64,000 nt of DNA. It comes from Mobula birostris (lineage: Eukaryota). Location of the stretch: assembly GCF_030028105.1 (NCBI RefSeq), contig NC_092384.1:43159553-43223552 (forward strand). Direction: 5' to 3'. The position numbers were made by a program. Position 1 is the stretch's first letter. The number at the start of each line of letters is the position of its first letter. This document shows, piece by piece, positions 26,201-38,200 of this stretch.

Positions 26201-29200
26201 AGAGCATAGTCGTTTTTGAATAATTTCAATTTTGCAGAGTTCCTACCAGATGGACTTGACAGCACACTAGGTCCAAATGCAAAAATGCTCAAGACATTTC
26301 AATTAGACACTAGTTAAATGTAGACATACACAAATTCACACATTGATGCATTTTGAACAAATAAACTCATTGATTTTCCTATGCTTTAGCTTTCCCTCAG
26401 TCTCTAAATGCACTTTTAGAGCCTGACGCACACCTCTCCCAAAATGTAACTCACGTCGCAGCAACACAGACCGCAACAACTGTGATTGGTCTGCTTGGTA
26501 GTATCGCATTTCCTCCTACGCTGCAATAGCTTCCCATTGGCCAACTGAAGGGCAGGGAAGGAACTCTGGCTGCAATGCTTTCCATAAAGCTTTACAGACC
26601 TCCGAAATTATGGAGGACACATTTCGCTTTTATGAATAAAGATACTCGCTTTAAACTTGCTTACCCCGAGAAAGAGTACCATGACCATGAAGCCTTGCGT
26701 GGGCAGGTGTGTGCACATGCGCGACATGCCCGAATTGCAGAGCAATGCAGACACACCAACGCACAAGTATAAATGCTCACAACGCACGTAAGCCATTTGC
26801 GTAGGCTACGGCGTCCATTTGACGCACAAGTATAAATCAGCCTTTAGTCCTAATGTAGATCAGGGTACTGAATTTCAGACATAAGTACCTGTAACATCAG
26901 GCCCACTACTTTGTGTAACACCAATGAGTGAAATAGTTCATAATTGGAGTAATACTCTACACAAAGAGAGATGATTTGAGATTGTTAGAGTCAATCATTC
27001 CAGCCTTAGGACAGCACTGCACGATTTGTCCATGAGCTTCCATCCATTTTAGTCACTCATGATTGCATTATATTCTATTCTCAAAATATACCAGCATATG
27101 AAGGAAGACCTAAATAATATCCAGGCACAGACTGATAAGTGGCAAGTAACATGTCTCCTATCAAAGTGCTAAATGTTAATGATCTTCAACTGTGTGAACA
27201 TTTACTAATTTTTACATCAATATCATCATTCATCTGCCCAATCATCAACATTCTGTGATTCACCACTGAGCAGGAACTCAACTATCTCAGGCCAAATAAA
27301 TACTATTCCTACAAACGTAAAGCAGGCTTCACTTCTGCGGTAAGTGACTTATTTTCAATAAGGAATTTAGAAAACTTAGCAGTTTTGTAAGCTCTCTGAG
27401 ATATTGCATGTGTCTAGACAGGTTATGGACATAATGTACTTTACTTTTTTTTGGAAAAGAAATAATCAATGCCTCAAATTCTAGATTAAAAAAAGAAAAT
27501 TTCCTTGACATTGACATCAATGCCCATTTCTCTATCATAACAACATTATTCAAATTCTGAAAGTTGACTTCCCTGACACCCTTTTTCCCCACAACAAACC
27601 CTAAAATACACATTTCGTTTGGCATTATGGATTTTTATTATGTTAATATATACAGTAATAGGTGCTGATTGTGTTAATTTGTCTGCATTGAGCCTTACCT
27701 GCAAGCAGTCTACTTGCAGCAACCAGGTCTAGAAGGCTGGGGAAAAAGTGAGTGAAGGGATAGTTTAGTTCAAAAATTTGAGATAGTGAAACAAATCTGT
27801 CTTTTCATTCTAACTATTTTATGCTTGAACCAATTCCACGATACAAGAGAAAACATTGTGGCCAGTGAGTCCATGCTGATCATAGTGCTCACCCAGGTAG
27901 TCACAATTTCCCACATTCAGCCCCACCCCACCATGTACCTGCCTCAACCACTTCTTTTGGCAGCTCATTCCACATAATCACCACCCTCTGTGTGAAATAG
28001 TCGCCCTTCAGGTGCCTTTTAAATCCATGCCCTCCAGTTTTGAACTCTCTTGGGGGAGGGGGGGGAATGCTGCTACCATTCACCTGCAGTCATCTTGAAA
28101 TTAATTGTAGCAATCACAGTGGGGCACATTTTGTGAATTTACAGTGGGCTTGACAGCCAAACAACTGTCATTTATACAGTTTGAGATTGATAATGCAGAG
28201 ATTAATATTAAAATTCTGATGTGCTATTGTAATTGAGTCATAAAAAATGTTAGCAGGGCTTTTTTGCCATATTAAAGAACAAATAAAGAAATATTACACT
28301 GGACAACTTCTCCCTGAGAAAAGCCAGCATGGATTAATGCAGGAACTTGCCTGAGGAACTAAAATTAATAATGATAGCAACAACAGGCATATTGTTATGC
28401 AATAAATGTTATTTATATGGACATCAATAAGGTTCAGCATATCTGAAGCAAAACTTGGGGAATTTAAAGCAATTTATAATTCTGATCAGGAAACTTTCTG
28501 AGACAGGAGAAAGAGGAATAATAAGTAACTAGGTAATCGATTCAGCAAGTTCCGTTCTGCATTAGGAATAAACATTCGGTTATTCAACCATATTTCTCGA
28601 CAACTTAGATCTTATAATAGCCTCACAACGCTCTAGCCCGAAACGTCCGCGAGATTAAAGAGCTGGTTGTTGACCTAACGAAACGGGGCGGGGCGTCTGT
28701 CTCCTCTTTAATGGAAATGCTATCCTTAAGTTCTTGGTAACTATACAACCAGCAACCTCATCCGGTCCCTCTTTTTATTCTACAATCATTTTCCCTTCAG
28801 AATCATCGGTAGAATCATACAAATAAAACTGCATGCATACAAATTTGTATAGGGCATCACAGCCTTTTGAACAGGGACGTCAAGTTCTTTCCTTGATTGG
28901 GAGTGATATAGGTATTAACAATTTAAATAAAAATATCTATTACTTTTCCCGTGTTGTGTCTTTATGCTTCTTACAGAAGTGGGTATGCCCCCCCCCACCC
29001 TACAGTCCAGTTTTTACTCCCCTTGCAAGGGAAAAAAACAAGACATTGATCAAAGATCAGGGGCAGAAAAATCCGACAAAGCTGCTGCAAAGAATACATT
29101 AGAACATTTAACGCAAAGAATTCCTCGGCGAACGCGACAGGAGACAGGCAACAGGATGGCGGAGCTGTCCGAGCTCGCTGACAATAAACTGCTTGCAGCA

Positions 29201-35200: not shown

Positions 35201-38200
35201 GATGAAAACGCCTGCTCTCTCTATGTGTGCGAGAAGTGAGGAGCTCCGCGGTCACAGTTTTCACATACATAAACATTTCTTTAGGACTCCCTGTTGTTGA
35301 GTGTCTGTGCATCAGCCGCTCGGCCCGGCCTGAAGGAGATGGCGGACTCGCAGCCCTGTTCCGCCGTCAAGCTGCCCCCCTCGCAGCCACTTTCACGACT
35401 CAGAGAAGAGCACGCCAAGGTAAAGGCCTTTAAATAGAGCCTAAGGCAGCAGGTTTGGAGAGCAAGGCGACGGAGCAGTTGGAGTGGCGGCCTCGGTCAG
35501 AAGGGGGCGGGGGCCCTGGAGCCTGGCTTGTGTTTAAAGGGGCCGCCTGCATAAATCCCGGGTTTTGCTGCAGACAGCGAATTGGCACCTCTGGCTACGG
35601 TACTTTTATTTGTACCTGTTTAGCCTTTTTTATGGTTGGTTAGAAATGTCGATCGATGTCGCTTGACATTTTATTAAAGCTTACGCTTCTCTCTCCCTCT
35701 AAACGACGCAGAAATTTAATAGATCCCAGTTGAAACTGTAACTAGAAGGTACCAACTCAATCGACACATTCTATTTTACTTTAAGTTTATTTCCTTTTAT
35801 TTTGTTTCATCGGCCGAGATTACGAGGAACGTGACCACTTTCAATCATTAAACTGCCGATGAGCATGGAAAACTAATTGAAAGAATCATATTAGCGTTTA
35901 ACTGTGTACGTGGATAGTTTTAATAACGTTTGAGCGTTTTAGTTGTTGTATATCTTAGGGATTTTTCGTTTCTTTAACCTTTTTTTCCTGTCCATTTTAC
36001 TTTGCAAATATTTTGTTTGTTTAAAACCACTGCTCGGTATTTTATTGCGGGGCTCCAGTACTTAGTGATACTCGTAACGAACCTTGCTGGCTGCCAGATA
36101 GAACAGCGCCTTCTGCAGGGCTACGGCGACCTACGACTCCAAGCGGTAAAATTTAACCGTGTATTCTCTTAACCAACCAGAATAAAGCATCACGGCATCG
36201 GAACCAGGAAATACCTAGTTCATGTAGTTAGTCAAGGCGGAGTCGGGAATAGAGCGGGAAGGATATATAGGCCTGGTTTTGCTTTCACTGATAAAGAGCA
36301 AGCACCGAAACAAAAGTGTCCAACAAGATCGGTGACTTCTTTTACCGGTATGAATCTCAGCAAGTGGTCTCACCAGTAAATTAAATTGAAGCAAAGACAA
36401 ACAAATGTAGATGCTAAAGATTTGGATTAAAATAGGGAATGCTGGCATTTCAGGTGAAGAGAACCATATAACACCTCAATCCTATTAGTGGTGCCTTGAT
36501 TTAAAATATTTTTAAAGAACTTCTGCAGGGGAATAACCCTGATAAGATGAAATTTGCAACAGCTAGAAATTTTTAAAAACATCCCATTTGTGGAGATTTT
36601 AACATCACCCTGTTATTAATGACGGCTTCTGACTACTCATTCTTGTAGAAAACATGTTTTTGTTTCACAGAAGTTCAACAGAACCAATTAATAATTTTGG
36701 TTATCCTAGACACTAATGTTATAGGTGTTTCTGTGCTGCCTATGCAGCAGAGCTTGGTCTATCATCATCTTGTTCCCAGTAAAATTAGGATAGGTACCTA
36801 ACGTGCATAGCCATCCCACGTTAAAAGAAATAATGCACAAGTATCTTCAGGTCCTCAGTAAGCCATCCCTAACTGTAAGGGATTGCGTTTATCAAAGAAG
36901 CTGACAGTTCCATATGTAATAATGAATGCTGATAATTTCATTATAATTGCAATACAAATTTCAGGTCCTTTGTGATAAGTGGGAAGTCAATACAAAAGAA
37001 ATGGAAGATTGGATCTGCCACCAATCTTTAAAGTAGTTAATACAAGTGAAACTTAGTTTTACTTTGGCACTGAAAACTATTTCATAGAAACATTGAAAAT
37101 TTATAATGCAAGATTATTCAGTCTGTCGTGTCAGTACGGTTGAACAAGAATACTTCAGCCTAAATCCAAGTCATAGCTCTTCAATCATAGATCAAGTACT
37201 TCAAGGGGTTTGTGCACCTAACATTTTTTCAGATGGCCAGTTCCAGAATCCCGCCACATGCTGAATGGGAAAAAGTCTTTCTTTGTCACCCCTTTAAATA
37301 TTAAACCTTTATCCTTTTTGATGGCCCCTCTAGTAAAGGAAGTATATTTTTCTTATTTGTTCCCTTCTGGGCCTGTCATAATTTTATTCATCTCATTTAG
37401 ATAATCTCTGTTCCAAAGAAATTTTCCCGTATTTTTCATAGCTATGTTTTCCAGTCTGACATTTCCTGCATTCCCTCCCTATTCTTGTCATGGAATGACC
37501 AGGACTGTATTCAGCTGTGGCCGAACTAGTGTTGTGTTGAATTCTGCCATAACCACCCAGCTGCTTTATGATGCAATTGGCTGATAAAAGATAGCATCAC
37601 AATAGCTTTCCAAATACATTATCTCACAGTTTTCTGGATTAAATGTACCATTTCACTGTCCAACTTTCTGAACCATCTCTATCTTCTTGGAGTTTAAAGC
37701 CAATTTTTGTATCCTTACAAAAAATTTTAAATTGTAGTCCAAGTCATTGATATACTTCATTAAAAATAAATTATTCTGTACTGACTCCTGTGGAGGTCTG
37801 CGGTATCAGTCAATGAGCCATAGAAACAATTATTAATCATTGTGTGGCATATATCCATCCACGTGGAGGTCCGCTGGTGATAAATGCCCAGCTACAGAAA
37901 CACCCATCAGTAAGTAACTGCCACTGGATCAATGTTGGATCCAATATGCCACTCTCCTTTAGATCCCATAGATTTTTCTAGTTTGACCAACCTGCCATGT
38001 GGAAACTTGGTACAAGCCTTGGCAAAAATCCATGTAACTAACCATGATTAAACTTTGGCTTTTTAAATAATGGTTTATACAGAGAAAGTTGAAACAAATT
38101 GGTCTGTAATAACTGTGTTTAATCTACTTCCTTTATAGATGTGTATGTTAGCAGACCTCAGTCCCTTGACACTGTTTGGTAGGCAAAAAGGACTAAAGGA

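What the first reader, a model, noticed from the sequence alone, without database searches (positions are those of the whole stretch)
29175..35582. Large interrupted palindrome: an inverted copy of the URI1 promoter and first exon faces back toward CCNE1
Seen: the reverse complement of about 29175-29827 aligns to about 35057-35582 (URI1 upstream region, exon 1, start of intron 1), with a spacer of about 5.2 kb. The non-coding upstream block is the best conserved (116/125 identical by manual count, 29703-29827 vs 35057-35181). The coding exon has lost a net 16 nt, yet keeps the ATG context and the AAG|GTAAA donor, and its CpGs have not decayed. Inference: a duplicated promoter that may still be unmethylated and active, maintained by selection or by arm-to-arm gene conversion. 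It would drive transcription convergent on the CCNE1 3' end about 5 kb away. I know of no description of such a structure at the CCNE1-URI1 locus.
Basis: partly seen in the sequence, partly recalled or inferred. Interest (0 to 1): 0.75.

Follow-up and report, generated by a model that had tools for sequence, protein, structure and literature searches.

The report
Old inverted copy of URI1 promoter
A stingray-type genome carries an old, back-to-front partial copy of the URI1 gene's promoter and first exon about 5 kb upstream of the real one; the copy can no longer code for protein but still looks like an unmethylated CpG island, so it may still act as a promoter.

Summary
The inverted repeat is real. 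Left arm 29373-29827 (minus strand) matches right arm 35057-35548 at 83.8% ungapped identity with 6 indel events (blastn E 1e-116). The left arm stops at about 29373, not 29175.

The right arm is the true URI1 promoter, exon 1 and intron 1 start. CCNE1 ends about 5.5 kb left of the copy. The window is from a myliobatiform ray, not human.

The copy is a dead exon: a 1-nt frameshift plus a 15-nt deletion. It is old. It keeps ancestral bases at codons 7 and 14 where all four sampled myliobatiform URI1 proteins share a derived residue.

The uneven identity (91% upstream, 76% intron) fits constraint on the real promoter alone. No selection on the copy and no gene conversion is needed.

One feature does point to activity. 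CpGs are retained for about 1 kb downstream of both ATGs, although only the first ~210 nt are homologous. I read the copy as a duplicated CpG-island promoter that stayed unmethylated and probably fires toward CCNE1. No methylation or transcript data exist here.

The spacer is mostly a 3.5-kb 27-bp minisatellite. Interest is modest.

The parts
29373..29827 (-). Left arm: inverted partial copy of the URI1 5' end (upstream region, pseudo-exon 1, start of intron 1)
   Evidence: Aligns as reverse complement to 35057-35548; E 1.4e-116; 377 matches, 73 mismatches, 6 indel events.
29693..29827 (-). Best-conserved upstream block of the copy, including a 39-nt exact run (29789-29827)
29768..29794 (-). 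8-codon upstream mini-ORF kept in the copy (MAWSCRRC*)
   Evidence: The right-arm counterpart 35090-35116 reads MARSWRCC*. ATG and stop sit at the same positions; 3 of 8 residues differ.
29496..29560 (-). Pseudo-exon 1: 65 nt from ATG to the AAG|GT donor, frameshifted
   Evidence: Codon-by-codon alignment: 1-nt deletion in codon 7 and 15-nt deletion over codons 17-22. Its own frame reads MADSQHRLPTSCLAHSTKSTP with 2 nt left over; reading on across the donor meets TAA (sequence).
29373..29495 (-). Copy of the first ~125 nt of URI1 intron 1, with a kept GT donor (29494-29495) and a kept GGGCGG box (starts at 29416)
   Evidence: 92 of 121 aligned bases identical; 12-nt exact block GAAGGGGGCGGG.
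28561..29372 (-). CpG-rich shore downstream of the copy, not homologous to URI1
   Evidence: CpG o/e 0.56-1.21 in four 200-nt bins, falling to 0.40 and then 0.0 beyond +1000. 18 CpG in 28761-29360 against 3 per 1000 nt just beyond, Poisson P 1e-12. No similarity to the right flank or elsewhere in the window.
29259..29369 (.). Self-complementary repeat-like element abutting the outer end of the left arm
   Evidence: Matches its own reverse complement (71.8% over 117 columns). Weaker copies at 8308-8456 and 41965-42017.
29861..33348 (+). 27-bp minisatellite, about 125 units, pyrimidine-rich on the + strand; fills two thirds of the spacer
   Evidence: TRF period 27, 124.8 copies, 82% matches. 83.5% pyrimidine, GC 0.66. 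The first ~1.1 kb next to the left arm holds uniform CpG-bearing units; the rest is degenerate.
33349..35056 (+). Rest of the spacer: pyrimidine-biased unique DNA, a repeat-like insert (about 34130-34290) and a 32-bp tandem repeat (34826-34998)
   Evidence: CpG o/e is only 0.08-0.29 in 34339-34938.
35057..35548 (+). Right arm: the functional URI1 upstream region, exon 1 and start of intron 1
   Evidence: Partner of the left arm. Lies in a CpG island running from about 34940 to 36340.
35339..35419 (+). URI1 exon 1 coding part (27 codons), donor GT at 35420-35421
   Evidence: Residues 1-27 of URI1 of Hemitrygon akajei (P0001) match at 100%. Further exons at about 44687-44725, 47642-47722 and 51679-51813. 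Prefoldin domain E 8.9e-8.

Best explanation
This is an old, real, inverted partial duplication of the URI1 5' end. About 0.45-0.49 kb (the compact CpG-island promoter, exon 1 and the first ~130 nt of intron 1) was copied in reverse orientation to the far side of a pyrimidine-rich tract upstream of URI1. The copy has lost URI1 coding ability and evolves freely in sequence. Shown: the structure, the dead exon, the ancestral character states, and the CpG-island signature of the copy and of the non-homologous 0.8 kb beyond it. Inferred: the copy has stayed free of germline DNA methylation for most of its history. The most likely reason is that it still behaves as a CpG-island promoter that starts minus-strand, non-coding transcription running toward the CCNE1 3' end. 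The uneven identity along the arms comes from constraint on the real promoter only. The tandem array between the arms grew later and pushed them apart.
For: Structure. Gene identities: the exon at 51676-51813 finds URI1 (566 of 568 candidates at E<=0.001; the top named hit is Hemitrygon akajei at 100%). Exon 1 equals the first 27 residues of URI1 in 4 of 4 myliobatiform species read. The cyclin exon's best solved relatives are cyclin E1 at E 5e-24, with cyclin A2 next at 5e-10. Dead exon. Age: at codon 7 the copy has CG- where the right arm has TGT. All 4 myliobatiforms have Cys there, while Pristis, Narcine and 4 sharks have Arg. At codon 14 the copy has TGC, one CpG transition from an Arg codon. 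The right arm has CCC and all 4 myliobatiforms have Pro, while Pristis and 3 of 4 sharks have Arg. The copy also shares the derived Ala at codon 26 with the right arm. This places the duplication on the myliobatiform stem. Drift of the copy: upstream mismatches are 12 of 131 and 30 of 264 against an expected fraction of 0.13 if only the copy changes (P 0.11 and 0.23). CpG: the copy has o/e 0.63 and GC 0.55; 14 of the right arm's 25 alignable CpGs are kept in the copy, and 14 of the copy's 20 are kept in the right arm. CpG o/e stays at or above 0.56 from 0 to +999 nt downstream of both ATGs and collapses at +1000 in both, although homology stops about +210. There are 18 CpG in the 600 non-homologous nt against a local background of 3 per 1000. 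The window median o/e is 0.25 over 213 bins. Kept in both arms: the donor AAG|GTAAA, a GGGCGG box, two ATGGCG sites and an 8-codon mini-ORF.
Against: No transcript, cap or methylation data could be consulted, so promoter activity is untested. Part of the CpG-rich shore may be young repeat DNA. 28637-28647 carries an 11-nt motif that marks repeat copies in the window (7 matches against 0.14 expected), and 29259-29369 is repeat-like. The CpG-rich minisatellite units next to the copy are nearly uniform, so they may be young rather than protected. The copy lost somewhat more CpGs than the right arm (8 against 5 apparent CpG-to-TpG/CpA changes), though this is not significant (P 0.58). No coding partner exon or RNA family was found downstream. 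The dating rests on two codons. Codons 6 and 8 of the copy read His and Pro as in sharks, which fits neither a stem-myliobatiform origin nor the shared indel lengths without coincidence.
Confidence: 0.5

Rival explanations
1. Inert relic. The copy is a dead fragment with no promoter activity. Its CpG richness is a by-product of its surroundings: a GC-rich, strongly G-skewed minisatellite that resists methylation or is young, plus recent repeat insertions on the other side.
For: Sequence divergence of the copy fits neutral drift. The exon is broken. The neighbouring array is GC 0.66 with uniform, possibly recent units. Minus-strand GC skew is +0.6 across the array, so transcription coming from the URI1 side could form R-loops there (the link between R-loops and lack of methylation is recalled knowledge). 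Repeat-type motifs lie in the shore.
Against: The shore 28761-29360 is not GC-rich (0.35-0.49) yet holds 18 CpG in 600 nt. It finds no repeat copy in the window. The CpG-rich zone ends at +1000 from the ATG in both arms. CpG density in the array is highest next to the copy and falls toward URI1, the opposite of what spreading from the URI1 promoter would give.
Confidence: 0.32
2. The copy is kept similar to the real promoter by purifying selection on its own sequence or by arm-to-arm gene conversion.
For: Identity is uneven: 90.8% in the upstream block against 76% in the intron part (Fisher P 0.002). There are exact runs of 39 and 19 nt at the promoter edge and the donor. The mixed pattern in exon 1 (shark-like codons 6-8, myliobatiform-like codon 26) could be a trace of an old partial conversion.
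Against: Overall identity is 83.8% with 6 indel events, and the longest exact run is 39 nt. That is far from what ongoing conversion gives. The unevenness is fully explained by constraint on the right arm alone (P 0.11-0.31). The exon carries a frameshift.
Confidence: 0.1
3. Assembly artefact: a fold-back or mis-join at a hard tandem array.
For: The arms flank a 3.5-kb minisatellite, a class of sequence that can be mis-assembled.
Against: Artefactual fold-backs give near-identical arms. These differ at 73 of 450 aligned bases plus 6 indel events, and the copy carries ancestral bases that the real exon lacks. The window has no gap. The whole unit is 6.2 kb. If the window is from the published red stingray assembly, that assembly was built from HiFi reads with hifiasm (passages read).
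Confidence: 0.03
4. The two arms are terminal inverted repeats of a mobile element, or copies of a dispersed repeat family.
For: Inverted arms around an internal segment resemble a fold-back element. A repeat-like hairpin abuts the left arm.
Against: The right arm contains URI1 exon 1, whose peptide is shared by rays and sharks, so it is an ancestral gene part. There are only two copies in the 64 kb. The genome at large could not be searched.
Confidence: 0.03

Closest known systems
Unprocessed (duplicated) partial pseudogene, or gene fragment, made by a small segmental duplication
   Same: Copies promoter, exon and intron DNA of the parent gene, lies next to the parent, and carries disabling indels.
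   Different: Covers only the first exon and about 0.28 kb upstream. It is inverted head-to-head and keeps a CpG-island signature after roughly 16-24% divergence.
Orphan CpG islands that act as unannotated or alternative promoters (Illingworth et al. 2010, PMC2944787; Sarda et al. 2017, PMC5378174; search listing and abstract openings only)
   Same: An intergenic CpG island away from any annotated coding start, with a promoter-like sequence.
   Different: Here the origin of the island is visible: it is a copy of a neighbouring gene's promoter. Methylation state and activity are not measured.
Large palindromes of mammalian sex chromosomes, kept alike by arm-to-arm gene conversion (recalled knowledge, no call)
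   Same: Inverted arms around a spacer, with gene parts in the arms.
   Different: Those arms are kilobases to megabases long and over 99% identical. These are 0.45-0.49 kb and 84% identical, so conversion is not at work.
Pseudogene-associated long non-coding RNA genes (bioRxiv 10.1101/2025.03.21.644463; search listing only)
   Same: A pseudogene fragment with a retained promoter is a proposed source of non-coding transcripts.
   Different: No transcript is known here.
Inverted duplications made by replication template switching or fold-back repair at structure-prone tracts (recalled knowledge, no call)
   Same: A short inverted copy placed across a purine/pyrimidine-asymmetric, structure-prone tract.
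   Different: No junction microhomology could be read. The junctions are old, and one is overlain by a repeat.

Membership tests
CpG island (sequence criteria as recalled: length >200 nt, GC >0.5, CpG o/e >0.6) | Length, GC content and CpG observed/expected | tested here: met
   Left arm: 451 nt, GC 0.55, o/e 0.63. Right arm: 488 nt, GC 0.58, o/e 0.67. Window median o/e is 0.25.
CpG island (functional sense) | Lack of DNA methylation in the germline or early embryo | not testable with these tools
   Only indirect evidence: CpG retention in the arm and in 0.8 kb of non-homologous flank.
Active promoter | Capped transcripts starting there | not testable with these tools
   No expression data can be reached. 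Recalled motifs kept in both arms (two ATGGCG, one GGGCGG) are leads only.
Unprocessed partial pseudogene of URI1 | Homology to the parent that includes non-coding DNA (upstream region and intron) | tested here: met
   Alignment covers 282 nt upstream of the ATG, the exon, and about 125 nt of intron.
Unprocessed partial pseudogene of URI1 | Disabling lesion in the coding part | tested here: met
   1-nt deletion in codon 7 shifts the frame; a 15-nt deletion removes codons 17-22.
Gene-conversion-maintained palindrome | Arms nearly identical (over 99%) | tested here: not met
   83.8% ungapped, 6 indel events, longest exact run 39 nt.
Bidirectional promoter pair | Two head-to-head starts within about 1 kb (recalled definition) | tested here: not met
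   The inner ends of the arms are 5229 nt apart (29827 to 35057).
Fold-back or terminal-inverted-repeat mobile element | Arms belong to a dispersed repeat family rather than to host gene sequence | tested here: not met
   The right arm holds the conserved URI1 exon 1. Only two copies in the window. Genome-wide copy number was not testable.
Known structured RNA genes | Match to an Rfam family or a tRNA model | tested here: not met
   0 Rfam matches in the whole window at gathering scores, 0 in 28900-35900 at E<=1, and 0 tRNAs.

The most novel reading that the evidence does not exclude
The copy is a promoter duplicate of myliobatiform-stem age (my recalled estimate is of the order of 100 million years). 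Rays have kept it unmethylated and active because its minus-strand non-coding transcript, convergent on CCNE1, or the paired head-to-head promoters around a G-skewed tandem array, do regulatory work at the CCNE1-URI1 boundary. It would then be conserved at the same place in stingrays and mantas, with slower change than neutral on its own branch.
Probability: 0.15. Interest if true: 0.55.

Novelty: new member of a known kind. Interest (0 to 1): 0.3.

Why it matters
If the copy is unmethylated and firing, it is a clean natural case of a CpG-island promoter that was duplicated, lost its gene, and kept its island state for a very long time. It would show that the island state can follow the sequence to a new place and spread about 1 kb into unrelated DNA. 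It would also place an antisense-oriented transcript between two growth-control genes, CCNE1 and URI1. If the copy is methylated and silent, it is an ordinary gene fragment. Either way the test is cheap, because long-read methylation calls and embryonic RNA data are reported for at least one stingray (passages read).

Tried and rejected
1. Extension of the arms. Sensitive blastn of 35540-37500, 27500-29380 and 33340-35065 against the window found no further inverted homology and no hidden symmetry inside the spacer.

2. Structured RNA in the conserved block. There were no Rfam or tRNA matches.

3. Coding capacity of the minisatellite. All six frames are open across it, with ORFs of 906-1253 aa. 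This is an effect of composition, not evidence for a gene.

4. G-quadruplexes. The G-rich strand of the array has 0 motifs with runs of three G; it has only 122 weak two-G motifs.

5. A search for any annotated protein that starts with the copy's 21-residue reading failed. The tool needs at least 40 residues.

6. A search with the first 45 residues of the URI1 reference gave only 2 proteins and added nothing.

7. 'The copy keeps a shark-like QHRP start, so it predates all rays.' I rejected this as unproven. Codons 6-8 fit it, but the copy shares the myliobatiform lengths and the derived Ala26.

8. One search used limits one base off and is void; one search replaces it. Searches also used 35340-35420 for exon 1. 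The segment counts therefore shift by one base, and the out-of-frame exon-1 query means nothing.

9. The CpG-rich patch at 26401-27000 showed nothing recognisable.

10. Literature. No paper in the library holds URI1, CCNE1 and 'inverted duplication' together (0 papers). Broader searches gave only general parallels.
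Full report
**Observation**

The inverted repeat exists and is far beyond chance.
- The repeat finder gave five collinear inverted blocks between 29375-29832 and 35052-35546.
- blastn gave a single inverted hit in the window, 35057-35546 to 29827-29375, with E 1.4e-116.
- The real arms score 410 bits; the best of 200 shuffles scores 26.5.
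- A global alignment has 377 matches, 73 mismatches and 39 gap columns in 6 events, which is 83.8% ungapped.
- The arms begin with a 39-nt exact run at 35057 and 29827. They end near 35548 and 29373.
Nothing beyond the ends listed above finds a partner.
- The window has no N.

**Context**

The window is not human; I take it for a myliobatiform ray.
- Exons were searched one at a time.
- The plus-strand exon at 51676-51813 carries a Prefoldin domain (E 8.9e-8).
- That exon finds URI1: 566 of 568 candidates at E<=0.001, and the top named hit is Hemitrygon akajei at 100%.
- With that protein as a guide, URI1 exons lie at 35339-35419, about 44687-44725, 47642-47722 and 51679-51813.
- The exon-1 peptide is identical in Hemitrygon akajei, Hypanus sabinus, Mobula hypostoma and Mobula birostris. 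The species is therefore not fixed by it.
- Upstream on the same strand lie cyclin exons from about 17.9 to 24.0 kb.
- One cyclin exon has Cyclin_N at E 1.5e-16. Its best solved relatives are cyclin E1 at 5e-24, ahead of cyclin A2 at 5e-10.
- The CCNE1 reading frame stops at 24028. The first AATAAA signals follow at 24313 and 24381.

**Anatomy of the arms** (the exon limits there are one base off and are corrected)

| Segment | Identity | Gaps |
|---|---|---|
| Upstream block | 119 of 131 (90.8%) | none |
| Rest of the region before the ATG | 115 of 133 (86.5%) | two gaps |
| Exon-1 coding part | 51 of 65 (78.5%) | two deletions in the copy |
| Start of intron 1 | 92 of 121 (76.0%) | two gaps |

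Both arms keep the following features:
- the ATG;
- the AAG|GTAAA donor, inside a 19-nt exact run;
- a GGGCGG box in the intron part;
- two ATGGCG sites;
- an 8-codon mini-ORF upstream, with 3 of 8 residues changed.

The motif names are recalled and are leads only.

**The copy's exon is dead, and it is old**

Codon by codon, the copy has a 1-nt deletion in codon 7 that shifts the frame. It also lacks 15 nt covering codons 17-22. Its own frame reads 21 residues and then runs into the donor.

I compared it with URI1 N-termini of nine named elasmobranch species:
- Codon 7 is CG- in the copy and TGT (Cys) in the real exon. All four myliobatiforms have Cys. Pristis, Narcine and four sharks have Arg.
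- Codon 14 is TGC in the copy, one CpG transition from an Arg codon, and CCC (Pro) in the real exon. All four myliobatiforms have Pro. Pristis and three of four sharks have Arg.
- Codon 26 is Ala in both arms and in myliobatiforms, but Gly or Asp elsewhere.

The simplest reading is that the duplication happened on the myliobatiform stem, before stingrays and mantas split.
- I recall that split as of the order of 100 million years ago; I did not check it.
- The divergence of the least constrained parts (Jukes-Cantor 0.28-0.29 between arms) is compatible with that, given slow rates in these fishes (also recalled).
- Codons 6 and 8 of the copy read His and Pro as in sharks, while all sampled rays have Pro and Ser. 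This could be coincidence or a trace of a still older origin with later partial conversion. I leave it open.

**Is the copy held by selection or conversion?**

The unevenness of identity is real: upstream block against intron gives Fisher P 0.002. But the real promoter is constrained and the copy need not be.
- If only the copy changes in the upstream region, and both arms change in the intron, the expected upstream mismatch fraction is 0.13.
- The observed values are 12 of 131 and 30 of 264 (P 0.11 and 0.23).
- No constraint on the copy's sequence is needed.
- At 84% identity, with no exact run longer than 39 nt, current arm-to-arm conversion is not credible.

**CpG evidence**

- The window is CpG-poor: o/e is 0.32 overall, and the median of 213 bins is 0.25.
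- This is the signature of a methylated vertebrate genome. The elephant shark methylome paper, PMC5437953, reports that pattern for a cartilaginous fish (abstract opening only).
- The copy has o/e 0.63 at GC 0.55.
- 14 of the real arm's 25 alignable CpGs survive in the copy. 14 of the copy's 20 survive in the real arm.
- Apparent CpG-to-TpG/CpA losses are 8 in the copy and 5 in the real arm (P 0.58).
- If the copy had been methylated over that much divergence, I would expect most CpGs to be gone. This inference rests on the recalled roughly ten-fold faster decay of methylated CpG.

More telling is the profile measured from each ATG in the direction of transcription.
- CpG o/e stays at 0.65-1.68 on the real side and 0.56-1.21 on the copy's side through +999 nt.
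- It then drops in the next bin, to 0.16 on the real side, and to 0.40 and then 0.0 on the copy's side.
- Homology ends near +210. The 0.8 kb beyond it on the copy's side is unrelated DNA.
- In 28761-29360 there are 18 CpG in 600 nt, against 3 per 1000 nt just further out (Poisson P 1e-12).
- An island shore of the same width around an unrelated flank is what an unmethylated, promoter-like centre would produce.

Cautions:
- A repeat-type 11-mer sits at 28637-28647 (7 matches in the window against 0.14 expected).
- 29259-29369 is a repeat-like hairpin.
- So part of the shore could simply be young.

**The spacer**

- 29861-33348 is a 27-bp minisatellite of about 125 units. It is 83.5% pyrimidine on the plus strand.
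- The 1.1 kb next to the copy consists of uniform units with two CpGs each. Further right the units are degenerate and CpG-poor.
- The remaining 1.7 kb is pyrimidine-biased unique DNA, with a repeat-like insert and a 32-bp tandem repeat directly upstream of the URI1 promoter.
- Both inner flanks are pyrimidine-rich on the same strand. The spacer is therefore one continuous asymmetric tract, not part of the inversion.
- The array probably grew after the duplication, so the arms were once closer.
- GC-rich tandem repeats are reported as abundant in the red stingray genome (passages read).
- A template switch or fold-back at such a tract is a plausible origin, but no junction evidence survives.

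**Rivals**

- Inert relic. A dead copy with CpG richness borrowed from its neighbours is the main rival (0.32).
- Assembly artefact. This is very unlikely. The arms differ at 73 of 450 aligned bases plus 6 indel events. The copy also carries ancestral bases that the real exon lacks.
- Mobile-element origin. This does not fit, because the right arm holds a conserved host exon.

**Comparison with known systems, and novelty**

This is a small inverted segmental duplication that left an unprocessed partial pseudogene. That kind of thing is common. What is a little unusual is the long retention of a CpG-island state by a promoter copy without a gene, and its spread into foreign flank. It resembles orphan CpG islands, which often act as promoters (PMC2944787, abstract opening only). 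It is not a conversion-maintained palindrome and not a bidirectional promoter pair. I found no paper on such a structure at this locus (0 papers).

**What stayed unchecked**

- Presence of the copy in other species.
- Methylation.
- Transcripts.
- Long-read support.
- Genome-wide copy number.

Noticed in passing
window 10374-10634, minus strand: An exon-like open frame with a BtpA-family domain (Pfam PF03437, E 2.9e-11). It lies upstream of CCNE1 on the opposite strand, and may share the CpG island at about 12.6-14.4 kb with CCNE1.
   Followed up: no
window 26401-27000: An isolated CpG-rich patch (21 CpG in 600 nt, o/e 0.70-0.71) between the CCNE1 3' end and the copy. Nothing recognisable appears in the sequence. 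A minus-strand transcript from the copy would cross it.
   Followed up: partly
window 29702-33463, both strands: All six reading frames are open across the minisatellite (ORFs of 906-1253 aa). This is a trap for gene finders, caused by composition alone.
   Followed up: yes
window 1900, 7286, 8384, 28637, 46026, 49255, 53181: The 11-mer GACGTTTCGGG (one mismatch allowed) occurs 7 times against 0.14 expected. It marks copies of a dispersed hairpin-bearing repeat. Similar repeat pieces lie at 29259-29369, 8308-8456 and 41965-42017.
   Followed up: partly
window 35090-35116 (+) and 29768-29794 (-): An 8-codon upstream mini-ORF with ATG and TGA at matching positions in both arms (MARSWRCC* and MAWSCRRC*). 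Whether it lies in the URI1 5' UTR depends on the unknown transcription start.
   Followed up: partly
window 34826-34998: A 32-bp tandem repeat of about 5.7 units directly upstream of the URI1 promoter. The unique URI1 promoter is thus squeezed into about 0.3 kb, nearly all of it inside the duplicated segment.
   Followed up: no
window 2237-2635, 7595-7933, 48550-48972, 49538-49831 and others: Several long open frames with repeated, mutually similar peptides seen by eye in the ORF lists. They look like pieces of retroelements scattered through CCNE1's upstream region and URI1's introns. They were not searched against any library.
   Followed up: no
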